The position numbers and the translations under genes are program-made. Positions 44,458 through 54,203 of a DNA stretch of 64,000 bases are shown piece by piece. The first letter of the stretch is position 1; each line of letters starts with the position of its first letter. Source of the DNA: Verrucomicrobiota bacterium (lineage in GTDB: Bacteria; Verrucomicrobiota; Verrucomicrobiia; Opitutales; UBA953); contig JBDKIN010000202.1 of assembly GCA_039797095.1 (NCBI GenBank), positions 2,729 to 66,728 on the forward strand, written 5' to 3'. A model generated the notes under the pieces. That model was not told the DNA's origin. It ran no database searches and saw only the letters and a list, made by a program, of their open reading frames with translations.

Positions 44458-45834
<1,377 letters not shown>

Positions 45835-45850
45835 GCTCGGAAGTCGGTGC

Positions 45851-46324
45851 TCAGCTGACCTTCACGCGGAAGAGCGGCTGGCCGAATTCGACCGAGGTGC
45901 CGTTGGCGACCAGGCACTCGACCACCGTGCCGGAGATTTCCGACTGGATCTCGTTCATCACCTTCATGGCTTCGATGATGCAGACGACGGAGTCGGCCTT
46001 GATCGGGGAGCCTACGGTGACGAAGGGCGGGTTCTCAGGGGAAGGGGTGGCGTAATAGGTGCCGACCATCGGGGAGGTGACCAGCTTGATGCTGGGGTCC
46101 GCGGCGGCGGGGGCGGCCGGGGCAGGCGCCGCGGCCGCAGGGGCCGGGGTCGCCGCTACGGGGGCGGGGGCGGCCGCCACAGGGGCGGCCGGGGCGGCAA
46201 TCGGGGCGCGACCGGGGAGGTCACGCTTGATGCGCAGCTTGAAGTCCTGGTCCTGGATTTCGAACTCGGAAAGGTCCGACTTCTTCATCAAATCCACGAC
46301 TTGTTTAATCTTAATTAGGTCCAA
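45851..46324 (-). CDS. accB: Acetyl-CoA carboxylase biotin carboxyl carrier protein
   Basis: Ala/Pro linker and biotinylation motif EAMKVMNEI. Confidence 0.93.
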
Positions 46325-46388
46325 GGTAATGTCCTCCGTGAGGGGGTGCGCCTCTCTGATACAGGGTATCAGGGGGGCAAATCAACCC

Positions 46389-49106
46389 TCATTCCAGAAT
46401 GCCGGTGGGTATCTTACCTAAGTCATTATCTTTGTTAGTCTTAACTAAATCTTTGAGCGTCGGAATAGCCTGAGTTTCGGGCTTCGCCAAGGGACCTTTC
46501 AGCTTGATTTTGGTGAGGCTGACCAAGGCCCGGTTCAAATTTATGATGTCGAGTGGGTTAAAACCTTGTTTCCGGGGCAAGGAAAAGTCCCCGACGAAGT
46601 TCAGGGTCATCCCCCGGAGGTCGACTTCCCCGGCCAGGTCCAGCCTGGCCTGGGGGCCGGTGATGGTCATGTCCGGGAAGAAGGCCCTCCCCCCGACGCA
46701 GCCGAATGTGCCGGTTGCCCGGTCCAGTTCGTAGGTGGTGGCCCCGACGCCGACGGCTTCGAGTACGCCCGAGATTCCCCCGAGCAGACGGACTTTCTTC
46801 AGCTCGGGGTCGTTTAAAGTGTAGGTGCCCAGTCCGCGGAGTTCGCGCGGTGCCGCGAGGTCGATCCGGCCTTTGAGGTCGAGGTCCAGTCGGCCCCGTC
46901 CTTCCGCTTCCTTCGTCGGCGCCACCGAAGCTTCGCCGAGGTCTTGCATGATCCGCCCGACCTGGGCCGGATCACAGTTCTTCAAAGAGAGCACGAAGTC
47001 CGGCGCTTGCAAGGGGTCGCCGTTCAGGCGCAGTTCGGCTTCGCCGTCGGCCAGACCGAGGCGGGCGTCGATCCGCATGCCGCCGGCTTGGCTCAGCGTC
47101 GTGACCTTCAGCCCGCGGCCGGCGATGCCCCACGCCTTGAAGGCGCCGTCGCTCTCGATCGTCGTCCGGATGTCGAGGCCTCGCTCGAGCGGCGTGAGTT
47201 CGAGCGCGAAGCGTCGGCCCGCCGGCAGCACGAGTCCTTGGAGCGCGTCGCCGAAACTCTTGCCGGCGCAACGCGCGGCGATCCACGGCTGGAGATCGCC
47301 GGCGGCTTTCACCACCGGGCCGGCCAGCACGCCGGGCTTCGACCAATCCCAGGTCGCACTGCCCTCGACTTCGCCGTCGGCGGCGCTCGTGCCGCCTTGC
47401 AGGCGGTGCAGGCCGATGAGCGTGTGCCGTTCGTCGGCATCGACGCTCACCTCCACGCGACGGAAGGGCGCGCCCATGAAGTCGAAGTTCCGCATCAGCA
47501 CGCGTCCGCGGGTGCGGCTCGTCAGCGCGCCCCAATGTCCTTGGACTTCGATGAACGCATGAGGATTTTCCCGCACGAGGAAGGTGCGCCAAAGGTCGAT
47601 CCACCAATTCCCGAGGACCCGATCGAGGCTGCCGGGCGCGAGTTCGCCGTGGAGCGTCAGGCGGAAGGCGCCGCCTTCGGCGACGGCGCAGTCCGCTTCG
47701 CCGACGACCGAGGCGAGACGCAGGTCGCGCAGTCGCAAGGGCTGTTCGACGCGGCCGGGCAGGAAGTCGAAACGGGTGCGCAGCGGCAGGTCGACGCCCG
47801 GGCTGATCGCCTCGGCGGAAAGTCCGAGTCCGCGGAAACCGGAGAGCCCCGCTTCGCCGCGGGCGCCGAGGAGACGTCCTTCGGGCGTGACGGTGACTTC
47901 GGCTTCGCGCAGGAGCAGGTCGCCCCGCAGGTCGATGCCGGCCGCGAGCAGGACCGGCGCGACCGCCGGGTGCGTCGAGATCTCCCGCCCGGAGATCAGG
48001 GCATGGTCGATGCGCAGCCGTCGGGTGCCGTCCGCAAGGCTCTCTAGCGAACCGCCCCCGACCGAGGCGGCGGTATGCGCACGGAAGCCGAGCGTCCAGG
48101 GTTGCTCCGCGGACCGACGCGCGGCCCGCAGGTTCATCTGCTGGCAGAGGATTTCGCCGATCCGGACATCAGTCAGCTCGGCGTCGGCGACGATCTCGCC
48201 GCGCAGGCCGGCGCCGCGTACGCGCAAGGCGGCGCGGGCGGCCGTCACGGTCGTGCCCTCCCGCCAGGCGGTGGTCTCGGCTTCGCCGGCGAGGCGCCAG
48301 TCCCGGAGAGCTCCGTCGGCCGCGAGCCGGGCCTCGGCGCCCAGCCGGAGGCCGCGTAGACTGATGCGACCGAGCTGTTCGCCGGTCTCTTCGCCCAGGA
48401 GGGCTTGCGCGGAGAGTTCCGCCGTGCCGTCGCTCCGGCCGGAACAACGGATTGTCACCGTCGCGCCGCCCGAGCCCTCTGCGGCGGCGAGCGCGGTGTC
48501 GAGCGCGCCGAGGAAGCCGGCAAGGCGGCGCGGGAGCGGTGCGGCTTCGGTCGTCGCCGGGCCGGCGCGCAGGAGGCCGGCGGGTAGTTCGCCGCTGACA
48601 TGGCAGGTGATCTTGCCTGCGCGCACCTGCGCGATACGGAGGCTGACCCAGCGGCCTTCCTGGGCGACGTCGAGCGTAAGCTCGTCGATGAGGCTGCGTC
48701 GCCTTCCGTCCTGCGCGACGGAAGCCGGGCACCACAGGCGGCCACCGTTCAGGCGTAGGCGGGTCGGCACGATCTCGCCGGCGAGGAGACGGGCCGGATG
48801 CAGCGCGACCTCCGCGCGGGCGGCGGCGAAGATGTCGCCGGTGAGTCCGTCGAAGGCGACCGTGACGTCGTCGGCCGCGAGCGTGAGGTCAGGCAGGACC
48901 CACAGCGCGCGCGCGCGGAAGTCGACGCCTTGGGCGGCGAGCCGTTCGGTGACGGCTTCGGTGACGAAGTCCGGCAACCGCACGGGCCCGTCATGGTCGG
49001 CGAGCCAGGCCAGACCGAGCTGGGCCGGAAGCAGGAGCAATAGGCAGGTGTTCGTCAGCCCGCGCAGGAAGCGACGCAACGGTGAGCTGCCGGGCTGCGC
49101 TTTCAT
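46389..49106 (-). CDS. Large N-terminally anchored envelope protein, AsmA/TamB/YhdP-like (tentative)
   Basis: N-terminal TM helix, approx 850 aa of repetitive beta-rich sequence. C-terminal IKLKGPLAKPETQ resembles the 'G-x-L-x-x-P' end motif of AsmA-like proteins. ATGA overlap with the upstream DUF4340 gene. Confidence 0.45.
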   Translation of the reverse strand: MKAQPGSSPLRRFLRGLTNTCLLLLLPAQLGLAWLADHDGPVRLPDFVTEAVTERLAAQGVDFRARALWVLPDLTLAADDVTVAFDGLTGDIFAAARAEVALHPARLLAGEIVPTRLRLNGGRLWCPASVAQDGRRRSLIDELTLDVAQEGRWVSLRIAQVRAGKITCHVSGELPAGLLRAGPATTEAAPLPRRLAGFLGALDTALAAAEGSGGATVTIRCSGRSDGTAELSAQALLGEETGEQLGRISLRGLRLGAEARLAADGALRDWRLAGEAETTAWREGTTVTAARAALRVRGAGLRGEIVADAELTDVRIGEILCQQMNLRAARRSAEQPWTLGFRAHTAASVGGGSLESLADGTRRLRIDHALISGREISTHPAVAPVLLAAGIDLRGDLLLREAEVTVTPEGRLLGARGEAGLSGFRGLGLSAEAISPGVDLPLRTRFDFLPGRVEQPLRLRDLRLASVVGEADCAVAEGGAFRLTLHGELAPGSLDRVLGNWWIDLWRTFLVRENPHAFIEVQGHWGALTSRTRGRVLMRNFDFMGAPFRRVEVSVDADERHTLIGLHRLQGGTSAADGEVEGSATWDWSKPGVLAGPVVKAAGDLQPWIAARCAGKSFGDALQGLVLPAGRRFALELTPLERGLDIRTTIESDGAFKAWGIAGRGLKVTTLSQAGGMRIDARLGLADGEAELRLNGDPLQAPDFVLSLKNCDPAQVGRIMQDLGEASVAPTKEAEGRGRLDLDLKGRIDLAAPRELRGLGTYTLNDPELKKVRLLGGISGVLEAVGVGATTYELDRATGTFGCVGGRAFFPDMTITGPQARLDLAGEVDLRGMTLNFVGDFSLPRKQGFNPLDIINLNRALVSLTKIKLKGPLAKPETQAIPTLKDLVKTNKDNDLGKIPTGILE

Positions 49107-50938
49107 CTCCCGGCTTCGGTCAGCAGCGGAGCAAGGAGGGCGGCGAGCGTCGGTTCCAGGATGAAGTCGTCATCATCCGTCTCGTCGCGCAGGAGCAGCG
49201 AACGGTCGTTGAGCGGGGCGGAACAGAGGTAGGTCCGGATCGTCTCGCTCGCGGCGCCGGCGCCGGTCGCCGCTTGGTCCGTCACCCGCAGTTCGTAGCT
49301 CCAGCCGCCGGCGCCGACGTCGCGTCCGGGGAAGGCGGTCGCGCGGACTTCGGCGAGCCCCAGGGCGAGCCGGCGCGCGCTGGTCGGATCGAGCCGCCCG
49401 GTGCCGGCCCAGTTGCCGTCCGGCCCGAGGCGGGCCTCGCCGACCACTTTGCCGTCGGCGCGCGCGGTGAGGCGTAGTCCGCTGACACGCGCGCCTTGCG
49501 GCAGGGCGGCCACGGTGCGGCGACGCCACGCGGAGGGTTCGACGTTCTGGTGTCCGCCGTCGAGGAACGTGACGTCACAGGTCGCCGCCAGCGGCGAACC
49601 TTTGGCGTGGACGAGGCGGGTGCCCGCCCCGTTGTCGGGATCGTCGGTGAAGCCGAGTACGATGCGTTCCGCTCCGAATTCGAGTTCGACGGTCTGGCCC
49701 GTCGCGCCGGCGAGCGGCTCGCGGACGGCGGGCAAGGTCAGTCCGCCGTCGACGGCGGGCGCGCGGCGCGTGGCCCGCAGCTGGGAGAGTCCGGCGAGGA
49801 AGCGACCCACGAGCCGCGCATCGGCTTCGCGGCGCTTGGTGGCCGTGGAGCCGGGCGCGACCGGAATCTCCCAGCGCGCGTCTTCGCCGAGTCCGTCGAG
49901 CCGGTGCAGCGTGATGCTGCGGCCGCCGGCGGAGACCGTGAAGCCCGTCACGAGAGACGGATCGAAATCGGCGGGCCGCGTGTCGGCGAGCGTCGCGCGC
50001 GGAGCCATCCATTCCCGCAGCTCGCGCGCCTCGATCAGGAAGACGGCGGCGTTGTCTTCCAGCTTCGCGCAGAGGAGTTGCGGCTGGCCCGGCGCGGGGC
50101 GGCCGACGAGCAGCATCTGACGGCGGGCGTTGCCTTCGAGCGCCAGGCGCAGGGCGGGTGCGCCCAGGCCGGTCGCTTCTTCGGGGAGGTCGGCGAACTT
50201 GGCGACGCGCAGGTTGGCGAGCGCGGTCACGGCGCGGGCGGTGGCGTCGGGATCGGCCGGGGCGTCGTAAGGGGCTTCGAAGCGCCACTCGGGCAGCTGC
50301 ACGCGTCGGCCGACGCGCGGGCGTGCTTCGGCGACGAGCGCCGTGACGGTCTCGACGTCCTTCTCGCGCTGCCGCACCGAGACCGCACGGGCCTCGAAGT
50401 CGGCGATCTCGAAGATACGGTCGACCCGGTAGCTCTCGGCGCTCACGCCCAAGGCCGCGGCCATCGCGTCCGGGAGCGGCACGATGCGCCGGCCGTCTTC
50501 GGTGAGCAGGAAGTGCCGGCGGGTCGAGGGTTGGACGCCGACCTTGACCTCGACGGCGGCGCCGGCGTCACCGGTGACCTTCACGGTCCAGCGCGCCGGA
50601 TCGAGGCCGTAGTCCTTGAGGCTGGCGCCGTTGGCCGTCACCTCGGCGACGTCGAAGCCGCTTTCCGGACTGATGAAGCGGAGTTCGTCGATCAGTCGCT
50701 GCACGGACCAGACGTTGGCCGGCCACTCGAACGGTTCGAGCACGCGCCAACCGGCCGGTCTTTTCTCCAAAAGGACCCGGGTCGGGCCTTCGGCGAGGGC
50801 GATGCGCGCCGGGTTGGCGGGGAAGAGCTGGGTCTGACTGACCGCGGCCGTGGTCTGTCCGGACATGGCGCGCCACACGAGACCGAAGGCGATCAGGTTG
50901 GCGAGCAGGAGGACGACGGTGGTGCGGGAGATCCGCAT
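49103..50938 (-). CDS. DUF4340 domain-containing protein
   Basis: Internal ATG 50938 (MRISRTTVVLLLANLIAFGLV). Position directly after a GldG-like gene is the usual DUF4340 context. Confidence 0.6.
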   Translation of the reverse strand: MRISRTTVVLLLANLIAFGLVWRAMSGQTTAAVSQTQLFPANPARIALAEGPTRVLLEKRPAGWRVLEPFEWPANVWSVQRLIDELRFISPESGFDVAEVTANGASLKDYGLDPARWTVKVTGDAGAAVEVKVGVQPSTRRHFLLTEDGRRIVPLPDAMAAALGVSAESYRVDRIFEIADFEARAVSVRQREKDVETVTALVAEARPRVGRRVQLPEWRFEAPYDAPADPDATARAVTALANLRVAKFADLPEEATGLGAPALRLALEGNARRQMLLVGRPAPGQPQLLCAKLEDNAAVFLIEARELREWMAPRATLADTRPADFDPSLVTGFTVSAGGRSITLHRLDGLGEDARWEIPVAPGSTATKRREADARLVGRFLAGLSQLRATRRAPAVDGGLTLPAVREPLAGATGQTVELEFGAERIVLGFTDDPDNGAGTRLVHAKGSPLAATCDVTFLDGGHQNVEPSAWRRRTVAALPQGARVSGLRLTARADGKVVGEARLGPDGNWAGTGRLDPTSARRLALGLAEVRATAFPGRDVGAGGWSYELRVTDQAATGAGAASETIRTYLCSAPLNDRSLLLRDETDDDDFILEPTLAALLAPLLTEAGR

Positions 50939-50945
50939 GGGCACG

Positions 50946-52454
50946 TCAACTCCTGCGACGCCACACGGAAACCGCAAGCCCGACTGCGAGCACGCCGAGC
51001 GGAATGAGGGCGAAACGCAGGGCCAAGGCCCAGAAGTCGGCGGCGGTCGCGGTCAGCTGATGTTCGCCCCCGGTCCGGGCAGGCAGCGAGACGGCGCGTT
51101 CGCGGTCGCTGAGCCAGGCGGCGGCCTGCGTCAGGAACGCGCGGTTGCCGCCGCGGTCGAGGCGGCTGTTCGCCGCGATCTCGGAGGTGCCGACGACGAC
51201 CAGTCGGCCGCCGGCGCCGCCGACGCCTTGCCGGATGCCGGTCGCGCGTTCCGCCGCGGCGACGACGCAGACCGGGCCGGGCTGGTCGCGCTCCGGGTCG
51301 AAGCGCAGCGGCCGACGGGCGGGGTCCGTCTCGCCCCAGGCGGCGTCCGACGAGAAGACGAGCTGCCACACGCCGAGCGTGCTGTCCGGCGCGCTGCCTT
51401 CGTCGAAGCGGGCGGGGCGGAGCCGGGCGGCGACCAGCGGGAGGTTCTGTTCGCGGAGCGGCTTGGTGAGCGGGTGTTCCTTCGCTTCGAGGCGGAGCAG
51501 GCCGATGTCTCCGTCGGTGGTGCGCCGCGCGGGATCCGGCTCCTGCAACTCCGCGTCGGGAGTGAAGATCGCCCACTCGGAGAGCACCGGCTCGAGGCCG
51601 TGGTCGCGTCCCGGGTCGAGCATGACGAGCACCCGGCCGTTACGTTCCTGCAGGTACTTGCGGAGACGGTCGTTTTCCGCGGCGGAGAAAGGCGTCACCG
51701 GACCCGGCACGAACACCATCGAGGCGTCGCGGGGGACTTCGCTCACCGTGGCGAGGTCGAGCGGCCGGACCTCGAAGTTGCGGTTGCGGAGCTGACGGGA
51801 GAGGAGCGACATCCCGCGCACGGGCGAGGCATCCTCGACGCCGAGTTCGCCGTGTCCCTTGGTCACGTAGCACACGGCGGGCTTGTCTTCGGTGACTTCG
51901 ATCAGGGCGGAGGTCACCGCTTCTTCGCCGCGGAAGGCGCCCTCCTTGGTCACGAAGTCCCGGTAGCTGAGGTATTTCGCCCGCCCGCCGCAGGCGAGCA
52001 CGAGCACGACCGTGGCGTCCGGCGCGCCGTGACGGCCGGCGAGTTCGGAGAGGAGGGGCGCGTTGCGACCGTCGCCGGCCTGCTCGACGGCGAGCCAGCT
52101 GCCGCCTTGGCGGCCGGTCTCGACGACGTAAGCGTCGAGCAGCTTGTTCAGGCGGGCGCGCAGGTAACGGGCTTCATCGGCCTGCTCGCTCGTCAGCACG
52201 ACGGCGCGGACCCAGCCGCGGGCGCGGCCGGCGCCCACGGGGCTGCGTCGGCCCGCGGCGCGTACGGTCTCGACCGATTCCGGGGCGAGCGAGTGGCGGC
52301 GGTCGGCGGAGATGTCGCGGCGGAGGCGGAATTCGGGCAGCGAGGCCAGCGTGTTCACGGCCACCGCGAGGGCGATCGCCAGCAGCGCCTGCGTGAGGCG
52401 GTTCAGCCGGCGGATGGGCCGGACGGAGCCGAAGTCGTCGCGCGGGGGGCTCAT
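50946..52454 (-). CDS. GldG-like ABC-transport auxiliary component (ABC_transp_aux family)
   Basis: N- and C-terminal TM helices and a VCYVTKGHGE block. Position after the ABC-2 permease. Confidence 0.7.
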   Translation of the reverse strand: MSPPRDDFGSVRPIRRLNRLTQALLAIALAVAVNTLASLPEFRLRRDISADRRHSLAPESVETVRAAGRRSPVGAGRARGWVRAVVLTSEQADEARYLRARLNKLLDAYVVETGRQGGSWLAVEQAGDGRNAPLLSELAGRHGAPDATVVLVLACGGRAKYLSYRDFVTKEGAFRGEEAVTSALIEVTEDKPAVCYVTKGHGELGVEDASPVRGMSLLSRQLRNRNFEVRPLDLATVSEVPRDASMVFVPGPVTPFSAAENDRLRKYLQERNGRVLVMLDPGRDHGLEPVLSEWAIFTPDAELQEPDPARRTTDGDIGLLRLEAKEHPLTKPLREQNLPLVAARLRPARFDEGSAPDSTLGVWQLVFSSDAAWGETDPARRPLRFDPERDQPGPVCVVAAAERATGIRQGVGGAGGRLVVVGTSEIAANSRLDRGGNRAFLTQAAAWLSDRERAVSLPARTGGEHQLTATAADFWALALRFALIPLGVLAVGLAVSVWRRRS

Positions 52455-52455
52455 G

Positions 52456-53217
52456 TCATTCCTGGCCCTCCACGGTGAGCACCGCCAAGCCGAGGCAGAG
52501 CAGGGTGCCGGTGCCGTACAGCACGAGCGGACGCGCGTCGAGGACGCCGTCGGTGAAATCCTGCAGGTGGCCGAACGTCCGCAGGTGCGCCGCCGGTTCG
52601 CGCAGCCAGCCGAGCCATTCCCAGCTTTCGATCGGCAACGTCTCGAGCGCGCCGCCCGCGGCCGTCAGCGCCAGCAGGCTGATGAAGGCGAGCAACGCCG
52701 CCAGCGCCGCGGAACGCGTCACGCAGCTGCAGAGGATCCCGATCGCGACATGCAGGAGGCCGCTCACCGCGATGAAGCAGAGGCCGCCCCATAGCGCGGA
52801 GGCTTCGCCGAGCGCGCGGGCGTTCGCGCCGTCCAGCCGCTGCGCGGCGAGGAACGGGAAGGCGGCGAAGGCCAGCCAGAACAGCGCCCAGACGATCCAG
52901 ACCGCGAGGAACTTCGCCCAGACCACGGCGGCGGGGCTCGCCGGCGTGGTGAGCAGCGCCGCGAGCGTGCCCGAGCGGCGTTCCTCGGCGAACGTCCGCA
53001 TCGTCAGCAGCGGCAGCACGCAGAGCAGCGGCAGCCAGAAGAACCAGAGCGTCGCCTCCACGGGCGACCGCGGGGCCGGCGCGCGCGCGGCGTCGACGAG
53101 CGCGAAGAAATGGATGCCGCCCATCAGCGCGAGGAAGAGGCCGGCGGCCGCCCAGGTGTTCCAGGAGAGCGCCGCGCTGCGCAGCTCGTGCGCAAGGAGC
53201 GTGCGGAAGTGTCGCAT
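52456..53217 (-). CDS. ABC-2 family transporter permease (GldF-like)
   Basis: Six predicted TM helices. 1-nt start/stop overlap (TGATG) with the ATPase gene. Confidence 0.75.
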   Translation of the reverse strand: MRHFRTLLAHELRSAALSWNTWAAAGLFLALMGGIHFFALVDAARAPAPRSPVEATLWFFWLPLLCVLPLLTMRTFAEERRSGTLAALLTTPASPAAVVWAKFLAVWIVWALFWLAFAAFPFLAAQRLDGANARALGEASALWGGLCFIAVSGLLHVAIGILCSCVTRSAALAALLAFISLLALTAAGGALETLPIESWEWLGWLREPAAHLRTFGHLQDFTDGVLDARPLVLYGTGTLLCLGLAVLTVEGQE

Positions 53218-54203
53218 CAGGAGCGGCGGCCCTCCCCGGGGGCGCGGCGCGTGGCGGCGAGGAAGATGTCCTCGAGTCCGAACCGTTCTTCGGCGATCTC
53301 GCGCAGCGCGAGCCCCGCGCCGATGAGCGCGCCGGCGAGCGTCTCGCGCGCGGGCGAGCCGACGGGCAAGGTGACGCGGAAGGTGTTCCAGCCGTCGGCG
53401 GAAGCGGCGGCGACGACGGCGGCCGCGGGTTCGGCGGCGCGGCAGGCGGCGAGCAGCGTGGCCTCGTCGGCGCGCGTCACGACGGTGAATGCGGCCTCCG
53501 GCAGCAGTTCGCGGCGCAGGTCTTCGGTGCGGCCTTGGGCCACCAGCCGGCCGCGGTTGATGATGACGACCTTGTCGCAGACCTGTTCGACCTCATGCAG
53601 GATGTGGCTCGAGATGAGCACGGCCATCTTGCCGCGGAGCGAGCGGATCAGCTCGCGGATGCCGAGGATCTGGTGCGGGTCGAGCCCGATGGTCGGTTCG
53701 TCCAGGATGACGACGCGCGGCTCCGCAAGGAGGGCGTCCGCGATGCCGACGCGCTGGCGGAAACCTTTCGAGAGCTGGCCGATGAGCCGGCCCGACGCGC
53801 GGCGCGTGAGGTCGCAGTCTTCCATCACGCGGCGCACGCGTTCGGCGACCCGGTCCGGCGCGACGTCCTTGAGGCGCGCGCGCAGGGTGAGGTATTCCTC
53901 CACGCGGAGGTCCTCCGGCAGCGGATTATTCTCCGGCATGTACGCGAGGTGACGTTTCGCGCCGGCGGGATCGAGCGCGACGGAGACGCCCCAGATGGCC
54001 GCGCGGCCCGAGGTGCCGGACATCGTGCCGGCCAGGATGCGCATGGTGGTCGACTTGCCGGCGCCGTTCGGGCCGAGGAAGCCGACGATCTCGCCCGGCG
54101 CCACGGAGAAGCTCAGGTCCTCGACCGCGGTCAGGGAGCCATAGCGCTTGGTCAGCCTTTCTGCCACGACGGCGGCTTCCGGCAGAGGCGCGGCTTCGTT
54201 CAT
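53217..54203 (-). CDS. ABC transporter ATP-binding protein (GldA/CcmA-like)
   Basis: Walker A GPNGAGKST, signature LSKGFRQR, Walker B VILDEP, H-loop SSHIL. C-terminal accessory domain. Confidence 0.9.
   Translation of the reverse strand: MNEAAPLPEAAVVAERLTKRYGSLTAVEDLSFSVAPGEIVGFLGPNGAGKSTTMRILAGTMSGTSGRAAIWGVSVALDPAGAKRHLAYMPENNPLPEDLRVEEYLTLRARLKDVAPDRVAERVRRVMEDCDLTRRASGRLIGQLSKGFRQRVGIADALLAEPRVVILDEPTIGLDPHQILGIRELIRSLRGKMAVLISSHILHEVEQVCDKVVIINRGRLVAQGRTEDLRRELLPEAAFTVVTRADEATLLAACRAAEPAAAVVAAASADGWNTFRVTLPVGSPARETLAGALIGAGLALREIAEERFGLEDIFLAATRRAPGEGRRS

What the first reader, a model, noticed from the sequence alone, without database searches (positions are those of the whole stretch)
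46389..54203. Translationally coupled ABC ATPase / ABC-2 permease / GldG-like / DUF4340 / AsmA-like giant protein operon feeding into accB-accC
Five minus-strand genes are joined by a 1-nt overlap (TGATG), a 1-nt gap, a 7-nt gap and an ATGA overlap. The first four form the widespread but functionally unassigned 'GldA/F/G-like ABC + DUF4340' set. Here a 905-aa N-terminally anchored, beta-rich protein is translationally coupled to them. Its C-terminus (IKLKGPLAKPETQ) resembles the termini of AsmA/TamB/YhdP-type bridge-like lipid transport proteins. Only 64 bp further downstream on the same strand lie accB-accC, the first committed step of fatty-acid synthesis. An inner-membrane ABC exporter with periplasmic accessory proteins, hard-wired to an AsmA-like bridge and next to lipid synthesis genes, suggests a complete envelope-spanning lipid or glycolipid export route. 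I am not aware that such a route has been described.
Basis: inference. Interest (0 to 1): 0.6.

Follow-up and report, generated by a model that had tools for sequence, protein, structure and literature searches.

The report
ABC transporter operon with AsmA-like protein
A freshwater Opitutales bacterium packs an ATP-driven ABC-2 transporter, two anchored periplasmic helper proteins and a distant relative of the AsmA/YhdP "lipid bridge" proteins into one tight five-gene block that is kept across much of the phylum Verrucomicrobiota. This makes the transporter a testable candidate partner for a class of bridges with no known motor, but so far only gene linkage supports the idea.

Summary
Five minus-strand genes (54203 to 46389) are joined exactly as described (TGATG, 1-nt gap, 7-nt gap, ATGA), and accB-accC follow after 64 nt.

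Genes 1-4 are a GldA/GldF/GldG-like ABC-2 module plus DUF4340. Gene 5 (905 aa) is a divergent AsmA/YhdP-like protein:
- it has an N-terminal membrane helix followed by about 50 beta strands (AF2 pLDDT 80);
- its family profile aligns to the E. coli YhdP C-terminus (hhalign 77%, E 2e-5) and the AsmA N-terminus;
- 18 of 27 relatives hit Pfam YhdP.

The groove itself could not be inspected.

The DUF4340-to-AsmA-like linkage is not private to this genome. It holds in 57 of 63 Opitutales genomes and 48 of about 71 other resolvable Verrucomicrobiota genomes, often with overlapping stop and start codons.

Three results temper the "single conduit" idea:
- The four-gene module occurs without an AsmA-like gene in many phyla, including monoderm lineages.
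- Two 0.9-Mb symbiont genomes keep the AsmA-like gene but no ABC accessory genes.
- The accBC adjacency is limited to some Opitutales lineages, and a strongly conserved 64-nt accB leader suggests separate control.

The scan has flagged this operon type before on at least 34 other genomes, with the same verdict. Physical or energetic coupling remains inference.

The parts
53217..54203 (-). ABC ATPase (328 aa), GldA/DrrA-like nucleotide-binding subunit with a C-terminal extension
   Evidence: PF00005 1e-26; TIGR03522 GldA 252 bits, below the 402.6 cut-off. Orthologues 45-79% identical in related loci.
52456..53217 (-). ABC-2 type permease (253 aa, about 6 hydrophobic segments), GldF-like
   Evidence: PF12698/PF12730/PF12679 about 1e-10; TIGR03518 GldF 60 bits, below the 288.5 cut-off. 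Hydrophobic segments. Start overlaps the ATPase stop (TGATG).
50946..52454 (-). GldG-like ABC auxiliary protein (502 aa): N- and C-terminal membrane helices flank a large periplasmic GIFT-type domain
   Evidence: PF09822 1.6e-14, PF23355 IFT52_GIFT 1.7e-5. Hydrophobic segments 20-42 and 471-499. Weak PDB hit to IFT52.
49103..50938 (-). DUF4340 protein (611 aa from the ATG at 50938): N-terminal membrane helix followed by four alpha/beta repeat modules
   Evidence: PF14238 1.1e-21, two stretches. AF2 model pLDDT 87, pTM 0.76, helix 3-33 then repeated E-E-E-E-H units. One module matches PDB 4q0y with prob 1.0; no other informative fold match.
46389..49106 (-). Divergent AsmA/YhdP-like protein (905 aa): N-terminal anchor helix, about 50 beta strands, AsmA-like C-terminal region
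   Evidence: AF2 pLDDT 80. hhalign of the family profile against E. coli YhdP 1132-1256: prob 77%, E 2e-5; against AsmA 28-113: E 2e-4. 18/27 relatives hit PF13116. Relatives are named 'AsmA-like C-terminal region-containing protein' by NCBI. ATGA overlap with DUF4340.
46325..46388 (-). 64-nt spacer before accB: a strongly conserved non-coding element (TTGATTT...TGTATCAGAGAGG...GGAGGA)
   Evidence: Nearly invariant in 5 lineages whose AsmA-like proteins are 42-83% identical. No terminator; no covariation, and the hairpin is not conserved.
44458..46324 (-). accB (45851-46324) and accC (44458-45834): neighbours, not part of the conserved five-gene unit
   Evidence: Pfam Biotin_lipoyl, Biotin_carb_N/CPSase_L_D2/Biotin_carb_C. 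Adjacency is seen only in some Opitutales lineages.

Best explanation
The block is a conserved five-gene operon of the Verrucomicrobiota cell envelope. An ABC-2 (type V-like) exporter, made of an ATPase and a 6-TM permease, works with two inner-membrane-anchored periplasmic accessory proteins: GldG-like, and DUF4340 with four repeat modules. In this phylum a fifth partner has been added: a divergent AsmA/YhdP-like protein anchored in the inner membrane by one helix and built from a long run of amphipathic beta strands. The most likely working model is as follows. The AsmA-like protein is a lipid-conducting bridge or groove reaching toward the outer membrane. The ABC module acts in the same lipid or glycolipid trafficking step, most simply by using ATP to extract cargo from the inner membrane and hand it to the groove, as LptB2FGC does for the Lpt bridge, with GldG-like and DUF4340 as periplasmic scaffold. 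Shown: gene content, junctions, AsmA-like homology and architecture, and deep conservation of the linkage. Inferred: physical contact, cargo, direction and ATP coupling. accBC is a lineage-specific neighbour with its own conserved leader, not part of the machine.
For: - Tight junctions.
- Family assignments.
- AsmA-like identity.
- Strand amphipathicity is 2.83 against 1.69 +/- 0.2 when shuffled.
- The best fold matches are the lipid-wrapping beta-belt of ApoB100 (prob 0.92-0.98) and LptD.
- The AsmA-like gene starts within about 0.6 kb downstream of DUF4340, on the same strand, in 57 of 63 Opitutales genomes and 48 of about 71 other resolvable Verrucomicrobiota genomes from at least 16 further families.
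- The gap is 50 nt or less in 22 of 31 loci, with 4-nt overlaps in 8.
- The genome has separate Mla/MCE genes, and relatives have separate Lpt genes (no LptD_N match in the 87%-complete G000), so this is a distinct system.
- A DUF4340 gene has an essential region in V. spinosum Tn-seq (PMC12283558).
- What drives AsmA-like transport, and with which inner-membrane partners, is an acknowledged open question (PMC10345924).
Against: - Only gene order links the parts; no interaction, expression or phenotype data exist.
- The four-gene module occurs without an AsmA-like gene in Acidobacteriota, Planctomycetota, Desulfobacterota, Bacteroidales, Chloroflexota and Clostridia/Eubacteriales. Downstream genes there are unrelated (alaS, uvrA, helicase, sulfatase). 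Its core job therefore does not need such a bridge or even an outer membrane.
- Several Verrucomicrobiota families have both genes unlinked.
- Two closed 0.9-Mb symbiont genomes keep the AsmA-like gene but no DUF4340 or GldG-like gene.
- No conserved outer-membrane partner lies next to the block.
- P0001 itself is far below Pfam's YhdP cut-off (11 vs 46 bits).
- No TamB or VPS13 structure appeared among the top 50 Foldseek hits.
Confidence: 0.4

Rival explanations
1. Same process, not one machine. The ABC module and the AsmA-like protein both act in outer-membrane lipid homeostasis and are co-expressed for balance, but they work separately or even in opposite directions. This is as proposed for MlaEFD (retrograde) and TamB (anterograde), which share an operon in Veillonella parvula.
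For: Precedent in PMC10665443. The AsmA-like gene persists without the ABC accessory genes in reduced symbiont genomes. The genes are unlinked in several Verrucomicrobiota families. Current models see AsmA-like proteins as passive, diffusive bridges (PMC10345924).
Against: The genome already has Mla/MCE systems. The translational coupling (ATGA or similar) of DUF4340 to the AsmA-like gene is unusually tight and is kept across classes, which is more typical of subunits made in fixed ratio.
Confidence: 0.27
2. The ABC-2/GldG/DUF4340 module exports a non-lipid or lipid-linked surface polymer, as ABC-2 exporters such as Wzm-Wzt or TarGH do (my own knowledge). The AsmA-like protein is an envelope-assembly factor that merely shares regulation with it.
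For: The module is present in monoderm lineages (Clostridia/Eubacteriales, Chloroflexota), so its cargo cannot be an outer-membrane lipid in general. Its closest named relatives are the gliding-motility GldAFG proteins. The GldG periplasmic domain is GIFT-like.
Against: It does not explain why an AsmA-like gene, rather than any other envelope gene, has stayed translationally coupled to DUF4340 across at least 24 families.
Confidence: 0.2
3. One reading: the operon is transcribed through accBC, so that lipid export is hard-wired to the first committed step of fatty-acid synthesis.
For: Same strand, 64-nt gap, and no terminator-like site in the spacer. accBC follows the block in several Opitutales families (L031, L042, L045, L046, L048, L054, L059, L060, L134-L136). 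Coordination with lipid synthesis is listed as an open question for AsmA-like proteins.
Against: accBC is not adjacent in the two largest Opitutales families sampled nor in any non-Opitutales locus; downstream genes there vary (histidine kinases, BacA, ThiL-like, subtilase). The spacer is nearly invariant while the upstream gene diverged to 42% identity. Its conserved blocks are separated by variable spacers, which fits an accB-specific promoter or operator.
Confidence: 0.1

Closest known systems
E. coli AsmA-like proteins (YhdP, YdbH, AsmA, TamB; Pfam clan CL0401, repeating beta-groove lipid bridges)
   Same: Single N-terminal membrane anchor and a long beta-rich periplasmic body. The N-terminal region is homologous to AsmA, and the C-terminal region to YhdP, including the terminal G-P-L-x-x-P motif. 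[quoted passage not shown]
   Different: Very divergent: below Pfam's cut-off, and no PDB sequence hit. It is encoded as the last gene of an ABC transporter operon. No inner-membrane ABC partner is known for the E. coli proteins (PMC10345924).
Lpt pathway (LptB2FGC ABC transporter feeding the LptC-LptA-LptD bridge)
   Same: The concept is the same: an inner-membrane ABC transporter that would load a periplasmic hydrophobic groove made of beta sheet. The ATPase gives a sub-threshold LptB match (141 vs 240 bits).
   Different: The permease is ABC-2 type, not LptF/G. No beta-jellyroll (LptD_N/OstA) domains lie in the block. Relatives carry separate Lpt genes; no LptD_N match was found in the 87%-complete G000. 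The bridge would be one AsmA-like polypeptide rather than stacked jellyrolls.
mlaEFD-tolC-tamB operon of Veillonella parvula and other Negativicutes (PMC10665443)
   Same: An ABC transporter for envelope lipids and an AsmA-like protein are encoded in one conserved operon.
   Different: That ABC system is Mla-type with an MCE protein, and genetics indicate antagonistic roles. Here the ABC is ABC-2 type with GldG-like and DUF4340 partners, no MCE domain is present, and the roles are unknown.
GldA/GldF/GldG gliding-motility ABC transporter of Flavobacterium johnsoniae
   Same: Same three protein families in the same order.
   Different: Scores are far below the equivalog cut-offs. Verrucomicrobiota are not known gliders with this machinery. 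The DUF4340 and AsmA-like genes are additional.

Membership tests
AsmA-like clan (AsmA/YhdP/TamB/YdbH) | Single N-terminal transmembrane anchor | tested here: met
   AF2 helix 9-37. Hydrophobic stretch 17-36 (KD 1.5-2.0) is conserved as a hydrophobic segment in all 27 family members checked.
AsmA-like clan (AsmA/YhdP/TamB/YdbH) | Sequence homology to the AsmA N-terminal and AsmA-like C-terminal regions | tested here: met
   hhalign of family profile A1 against E. coli YhdP 1132-1256: prob 77%, E 2e-5; against AsmA 28-113: prob 45%, E 2e-4. 18/27 members hit PF13116 at E<=0.01, best 2.3e-8. Profile A3 hits AsmA/YhdP/DUF748 proteins at E 7e-12 to 5e-4.
AsmA-like clan (AsmA/YhdP/TamB/YdbH) | The protein itself passes a curated family threshold | tested here: not met
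   P0001 against PF13116: 11 bits, cut-off 46, E 0.094. No AsmA, TamB or AsmA_2 hit. Membership rests on profile and transitive evidence.
AsmA-like clan (AsmA/YhdP/TamB/YdbH) | Continuous open beta-sheet (beta-taco) with a hydrophobic groove long enough to bridge the periplasm | tested here: inconclusive
   AF2 pLDDT 80 with about 50 long strands (450 of 905 residues) and interspersed helices. Strands are amphipathic: 2.83 vs 1.69 shuffled. Foldseek's best hits are the ApoB100 beta-belt and LptD; no TamB or VPS13 in the top 50.
AsmA-like clan (AsmA/YhdP/TamB/YdbH) | Lipid binding or transfer between membranes | not testable with these tools
   Needs biochemistry or genetics.
GldA/GldF/GldG gliding-motility ABC transporter (TIGR03522/03518/03521 equivalogs) | Scores above the equivalog cut-offs | tested here: not met
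   252 vs 402.6, 60 vs 288.5 and 24 vs 389.85 bits. Homologous families, but not the gliding equivalogs.
ABC-2 + ABC_transp_aux + DUF4340 four-gene module (uncharacterised, widespread) | Same four families in the same order as a tight cluster | tested here: met
   Pfam hits above cut-offs for all four. The same order occurs in dozens of loci from at least 10 phylum-level groups.
Lpt (LptB2FGC-A-DE) | LptF/G permeases and OstA/LptD_N beta-jellyroll domains | tested here: not met
   The permease is ABC-2 type. LptB equivalog: 141 vs 240 bits. LptD_N matches in relatives lie at other loci; none was found in G000.
Mla/MCE systems | MCE (MlaD) domain protein with MlaE permease | tested here: not met
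   No MCE domain in the five proteins. MlaD-domain genes lie on other contigs of the genome.

The most novel reading that the evidence does not exclude
This is the first energised AsmA-like system. An ABC-2 exporter, with GldG-like and DUF4340 scaffolds, physically docks on an AsmA/YhdP-like groove and uses ATP to push phospholipid or another envelope lipid toward the outer membrane. That would give a directional, Lpt-like version of a bridge class otherwise thought to be passive.
Probability: 0.25. Interest if true: 0.85.

Novelty: new variant of a known kind. Interest (0 to 1): 0.55.

Why it matters
AsmA-like proteins (YhdP, TamB, YdbH) are the leading candidates for bulk phospholipid supply to the Gram-negative outer membrane. 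The field's own review lists as open what drives the transport and which inner-membrane partners exist (PMC10345924).

A phylum in which an AsmA-like gene is translationally coupled to an ABC transporter operon offers a concrete, testable candidate for such a partner. It would also give a first functional handle on the very widespread but uncharacterised ABC-2/GldG/DUF4340 module.

If the two only share regulation, the locus is still a useful marker of envelope-lipid homeostasis genes in Verrucomicrobiota.

Tried and rejected
- The search for related loci with AsmA-like alignments A1 and A2 failed because no stretch was conserved enough. I used the ATPase alignment with 10-kb flanks instead.
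- The second and third word-index searches added almost no diversity.
- PDB sequence searches gave nothing for the AsmA-like family or DUF4340, and only a marginal IFT52 hit for GldG-like.
- Foldseek of the full AsmA-like model gave only low-TM matches (ApoB100 belt, LptD, barrels) and no TamB or VPS13 in the top 50. I therefore do not claim a beta-taco from fold search.
- Foldseek of DUF4340 gave only one domain-level match, 4q0y.
- The promoter/terminator scan found nothing useful on the minus strand.
- I considered the small hairpin in the accB spacer as a terminator or attenuator and rejected it. It has no T-run, is broken in 2 of 5 relatives without compensation, and shows no covariation.
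- I looked for a conserved sixth gene (an outer-membrane partner) downstream and found none.
- The upstream TPR gene is not conserved next to the block.
- The supplement of the V. spinosum Tn-seq paper did not let me see whether the neighbours of the DUF4340 gene are essential.
Full report
**Observation.** The window comes from a roughly 67% GC Verrucomicrobiota genome. It is an Opitutales MAG (G000, 1.88 Mb, 87% complete).

Five minus-strand ORFs occupy 54203-46389. I read each junction directly:
- ATPase/permease: cTGATGc, a 1-nt overlap.
- Permease/GldG-like: TGAcATG.
- GldG-like/DUF4340: TGAcgtgcccATG. The DUF4340 gene most likely starts at the ATG at 50938, not at the upstream TTG that the ORF listing reports.
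- DUF4340/905-aa gene: gATGAa.
- accB starts with TTG 64 nt after the 905-aa gene, and accC and prmC follow.

**What the five proteins are.**
- Gene 1 is an ABC ATPase. Its best NCBIfam hit is GldA (252 bits, cut-off 402.6).
- Gene 2 is a 6-segment ABC-2 permease, GldF-like (60 bits vs 288.5).
- Gene 3 carries ABC_transp_aux (GldG-like, with a GIFT/IFT52-like core) between N- and C-terminal hydrophobic helices.
- Gene 4 is a DUF4340 protein (PF14238, 1e-21).
- These four are homologues of the gliding-motility Gld proteins, not their equivalogs.
- An AF2 model of the DUF4340 protein, built from 38 diverse sequences, is confident (pLDDT 87, pTM 0.76). It shows a membrane helix (3-33) followed by four similar alpha/beta modules.
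- Only one small structural-genomics domain (4q0y) matches a DUF4340 module. The fold therefore gives no functional clue beyond "elongated, anchored, periplasmic".

**Is gene 5 AsmA-like?** On its own, P0001 is almost invisible to libraries: PF13116 YhdP at E 0.094, and a Leptospira-type GspN model at E 4.5e-4 over residues 51-177. The family context settles it:
- phmmer against 1.84 billion representatives finds 424 relatives, mostly 850-1050 aa.
- 18 of 27 diverse relatives hit Pfam YhdP at E<=0.01 (best 2.3e-8), with one each hitting TamB and AsmA.
- Two relatives are named "AsmA-like C-terminal region-containing protein" by NCBI.
- A profile of the distant members retrieves bona fide AsmA/YhdP/DUF748 proteins at E 7e-12 to 5e-4.
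- Against E. coli proteins fetched from K-12, the family profile aligns to the last 125 residues of YhdP (prob 77%, E 2e-5).
- The profile also aligns to residues 28-113 of AsmA, just after its anchor (E 2e-4).
- The AF2 model (37 sequences, pLDDT 80, pTM 0.59) has a helix at 9-37 followed by about 50 long strands with occasional helices.
- The strands are clearly amphipathic: the even/odd hydropathy difference is 2.83, against 1.69 +/- 0.2 for shuffles.
- Foldseek against the PDB gives only low-TM matches. The best are the lipid-wrapping beta-belt of ApoB100 (prob 0.92-0.98) and LptD. No TamB or VPS13 fragment appears in the top 50.

My conclusion is that the protein is a divergent member of the AsmA-like superfamily by homology of both ends and by architecture (about 0.85). 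The groove is inferred.

**Is the linkage private to this genome?** No.
- I took 14-kb stretches from 20 genomes and searched them with tblastn. This showed ATPase-permease-GldG-DUF4340-AsmA-like in 15 of 18 Opitutales genomes (16 counting one cut by a contig start) drawn from seven families.
- Three searches of the same 301 Verrucomicrobiota genomes followed: the single protein, the DUF4340 profile and the AsmA-like profile.
- I compared their coordinates by hand. The AsmA-like ORF begins within about 0.6 kb downstream of DUF4340, on the same strand, in 57 of 63 Opitutales genomes.
- The same holds in 48 of about 71 other genomes where both places were listed. Those 48 come from at least 16 further families.
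- In about eight families both genes exist but lie on different contigs or far apart. This count is an upper bound, because only the best DUF4340 match per genome was listed.
- Named loci from GenBank MAGs confirm the fifth gene in Opitutales, Puniceicoccales-type, 'Verrucomicrobiia' and Limisphaerales records. They show it missing after DUF4340 in Chthoniobacter and Terrimicrobiaceae-type records, where alaS or uvrA follows.
- The DUF4340/AsmA-like junction is 50 nt or less in 22 of 31 loci and a 4-nt overlap in 8.

Conservation of order and of translational coupling over this depth is strong evidence of a functional unit.

**What tempers the "single conduit" reading.**
1. The four-gene module is far more widespread than the fifth gene. 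It is found in Acidobacteriota, Rokubacteria/Methylomirabilota, Planctomycetota, Desulfobacterota, Omnitrophota and Bacteroidales. It also occurs in Chloroflexota and Clostridia/Eubacteriales MAGs, which are generally single-membraned. Unrelated genes lie downstream in these groups. The module's basic job therefore needs neither an AsmA-like bridge nor an outer membrane.
2. Two closed 0.9-Mb symbiont genomes in the same class keep an orthologue of the AsmA-like protein (809 aa, E 1e-31). They have no DUF4340 and no GldG-like gene. The AsmA-like protein can evidently do something useful alone.
3. No outer-membrane protein gene is conserved next to the block. Downstream genes include histidine kinases, BacA, a ThiL-like gene and a subtilase.
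4. The genome has Mla/MCE genes elsewhere, and relatives have Lpt genes elsewhere (no LptD_N match in the 87%-complete G000). G000 also has a second AsmA-family ORF (1239 aa) and a second GldG-like gene.
5. In the one published case of an ABC transporter sharing an operon with an AsmA-like protein (mlaEFD-tolC-tamB in Veillonella), genetics indicate opposite, not joint, transport (PMC10665443).

**accBC.**
- accB-accC directly follow the block in the close relatives of this genome and in several other Opitutales lineages (L042, L045, L046, L048, L054, L059, L060).
- They do not follow it in the two largest families sampled, nor in any non-Opitutales locus.
- The 64-nt spacer is nearly invariant in five lineages whose AsmA-like proteins have diverged to 42-83% identity.
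- Its conserved blocks are GGGTTGATTT.CCCCCC, CCCTGTATCAGAGAGG and CCCCTCACGGAGGA. They are separated by short variable stretches.
- The small hairpin in the spacer is broken in two lineages without compensation, and no pair covaries.
- This pattern fits a sequence-specific element, either a promoter (TTGATT, 18 nt, TATCAG) or an operator, plus the accB Shine-Dalgarno sequence. It suggests accBC has its own control.
- It does not exclude read-through.
- I rate the "hard-wired to fatty-acid synthesis" idea as weak.

**Mechanism and rivals.**
- Best-supported model (0.4): a conserved envelope operon in which the ABC-2 exporter and its two anchored periplasmic partners act together with an AsmA-like groove in lipid or glycolipid traffic. 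The simplest version has the ABC module as ATP-driven loader, by analogy with LptB2FGC.
- Rival 1 (0.27): the same process but separate or antagonistic machines.
- Rival 2 (0.2): a non-lipid cargo for the ABC module with mere co-regulation.
- Rival 3 (0.1): the accBC-coupled version.

Only steps shown by sequence are firm: composition, topology, homology and conserved linkage. Contact, cargo, direction and energy coupling are inference.

**Novelty.**
- Full-text searches for DUF4340, for GldG with AsmA-like, and for AsmA-like with Verrucomicrobia found no description of this pairing.
- The only paper touching the module in this phylum notes an essential region in a DUF4340 gene of V. spinosum (PMC12283558).
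- The review of AsmA-like proteins lists the driving force and inner-membrane partners as open questions.
- The parts are known kinds and the combination is new, so I class this as a new variant of a known kind.
- After forming this reading I found that the scan holds 36 earlier notes on the same operon type in at least 34 other genomes, with follow-ups reaching the same verdict. My results agree.
- This report adds four things: the symbiont genomes that keep the AsmA-like gene alone; the monoderm distribution of the core module; the DUF4340 model; and the conserved accB leader.

Noticed in passing
window 46325-46388 (minus strand): The 64-nt spacer before accB is almost invariant in five lineages whose upstream AsmA-like proteins are only 42-83% identical. 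Its conserved blocks TTGATTT / TGTATCAGAGAGG / GGAGGA are separated by variable stretches. It is probably an accBC promoter or operator plus the Shine-Dalgarno sequence; there is no covariation to suggest an RNA structure.
   Followed up: partly
window 46389-46460 (minus strand): The last ~25 codons of the AsmA-like gene are AT-rich and use codons that are rare for a 67% GC genome (tta, ata, gtt, act, ggt). The encoded K/N/D-rich tail ('DNDLGKIP..LxE') is conserved among relatives down to about 31% identity.
   Followed up: partly
G090 and G114 (closed 0.9-Mb genomes, same class); e.g. G114:C1:708076-709233: Reduced symbiont-sized genomes keep an orthologue of the AsmA-like protein (809-aa ORF). 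No DUF4340 or GldG-like (PF09822) gene was found in them.
   Followed up: partly
L091, L104, L108 (Clostridia/Eubacteriales MAGs); L101, L115, L117-L120 (Anaerolineae/Chloroflexota MAGs): The ATPase-permease-GldG-DUF4340 module also occurs in lineages generally regarded as single-membraned, with shorter DUF4340 proteins.
   Followed up: no
G000:C197:24734-25153 and G000:C131:8406-9380: The same genome has a second AsmA-family ORF (1239 aa; PF05170, E 6e-7) and a second, better-scoring GldG-like gene (625-aa ORF; PF09822, E 1e-37) on other contigs.
   Followed up: no
L132/L133 (E. coli K-12 NC_000913.3, 3392458-3407266): In E. coli K-12, yhdP lies about 9 kb from accB-accC on the opposite strand, with rng, yhdE, mreBCD, csrD and yhdH between them. 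This is probably coincidence but echoes the adjacency seen here.
   Followed up: no
window 49103-50938 (DUF4340 protein): The AF2 model shows four tandem alpha/beta modules after the anchor helix. One module matches PDB 4q0y ('thioesterase-like protein' CLOSPO_01618) with Foldseek probability 1.0, and the repeat arrangement weakly recalls sliding clamps.
   Followed up: partly
PMC12283558 (Verrucomicrobium spinosum Tn-seq): A DUF4340-containing gene (VSP_RS39600) is scored as having an essential region. The essentiality of its neighbours could not be read from the stored supplements.
   Followed up: partly
L057:7970-8977: In one Puniceicoccaceae MAG, the gene right after the AsmA-like gene is bacA/uppP (undecaprenyl-diphosphate phosphatase). 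This is a lone case of a lipid-carrier gene next to the block.
   Followed up: no
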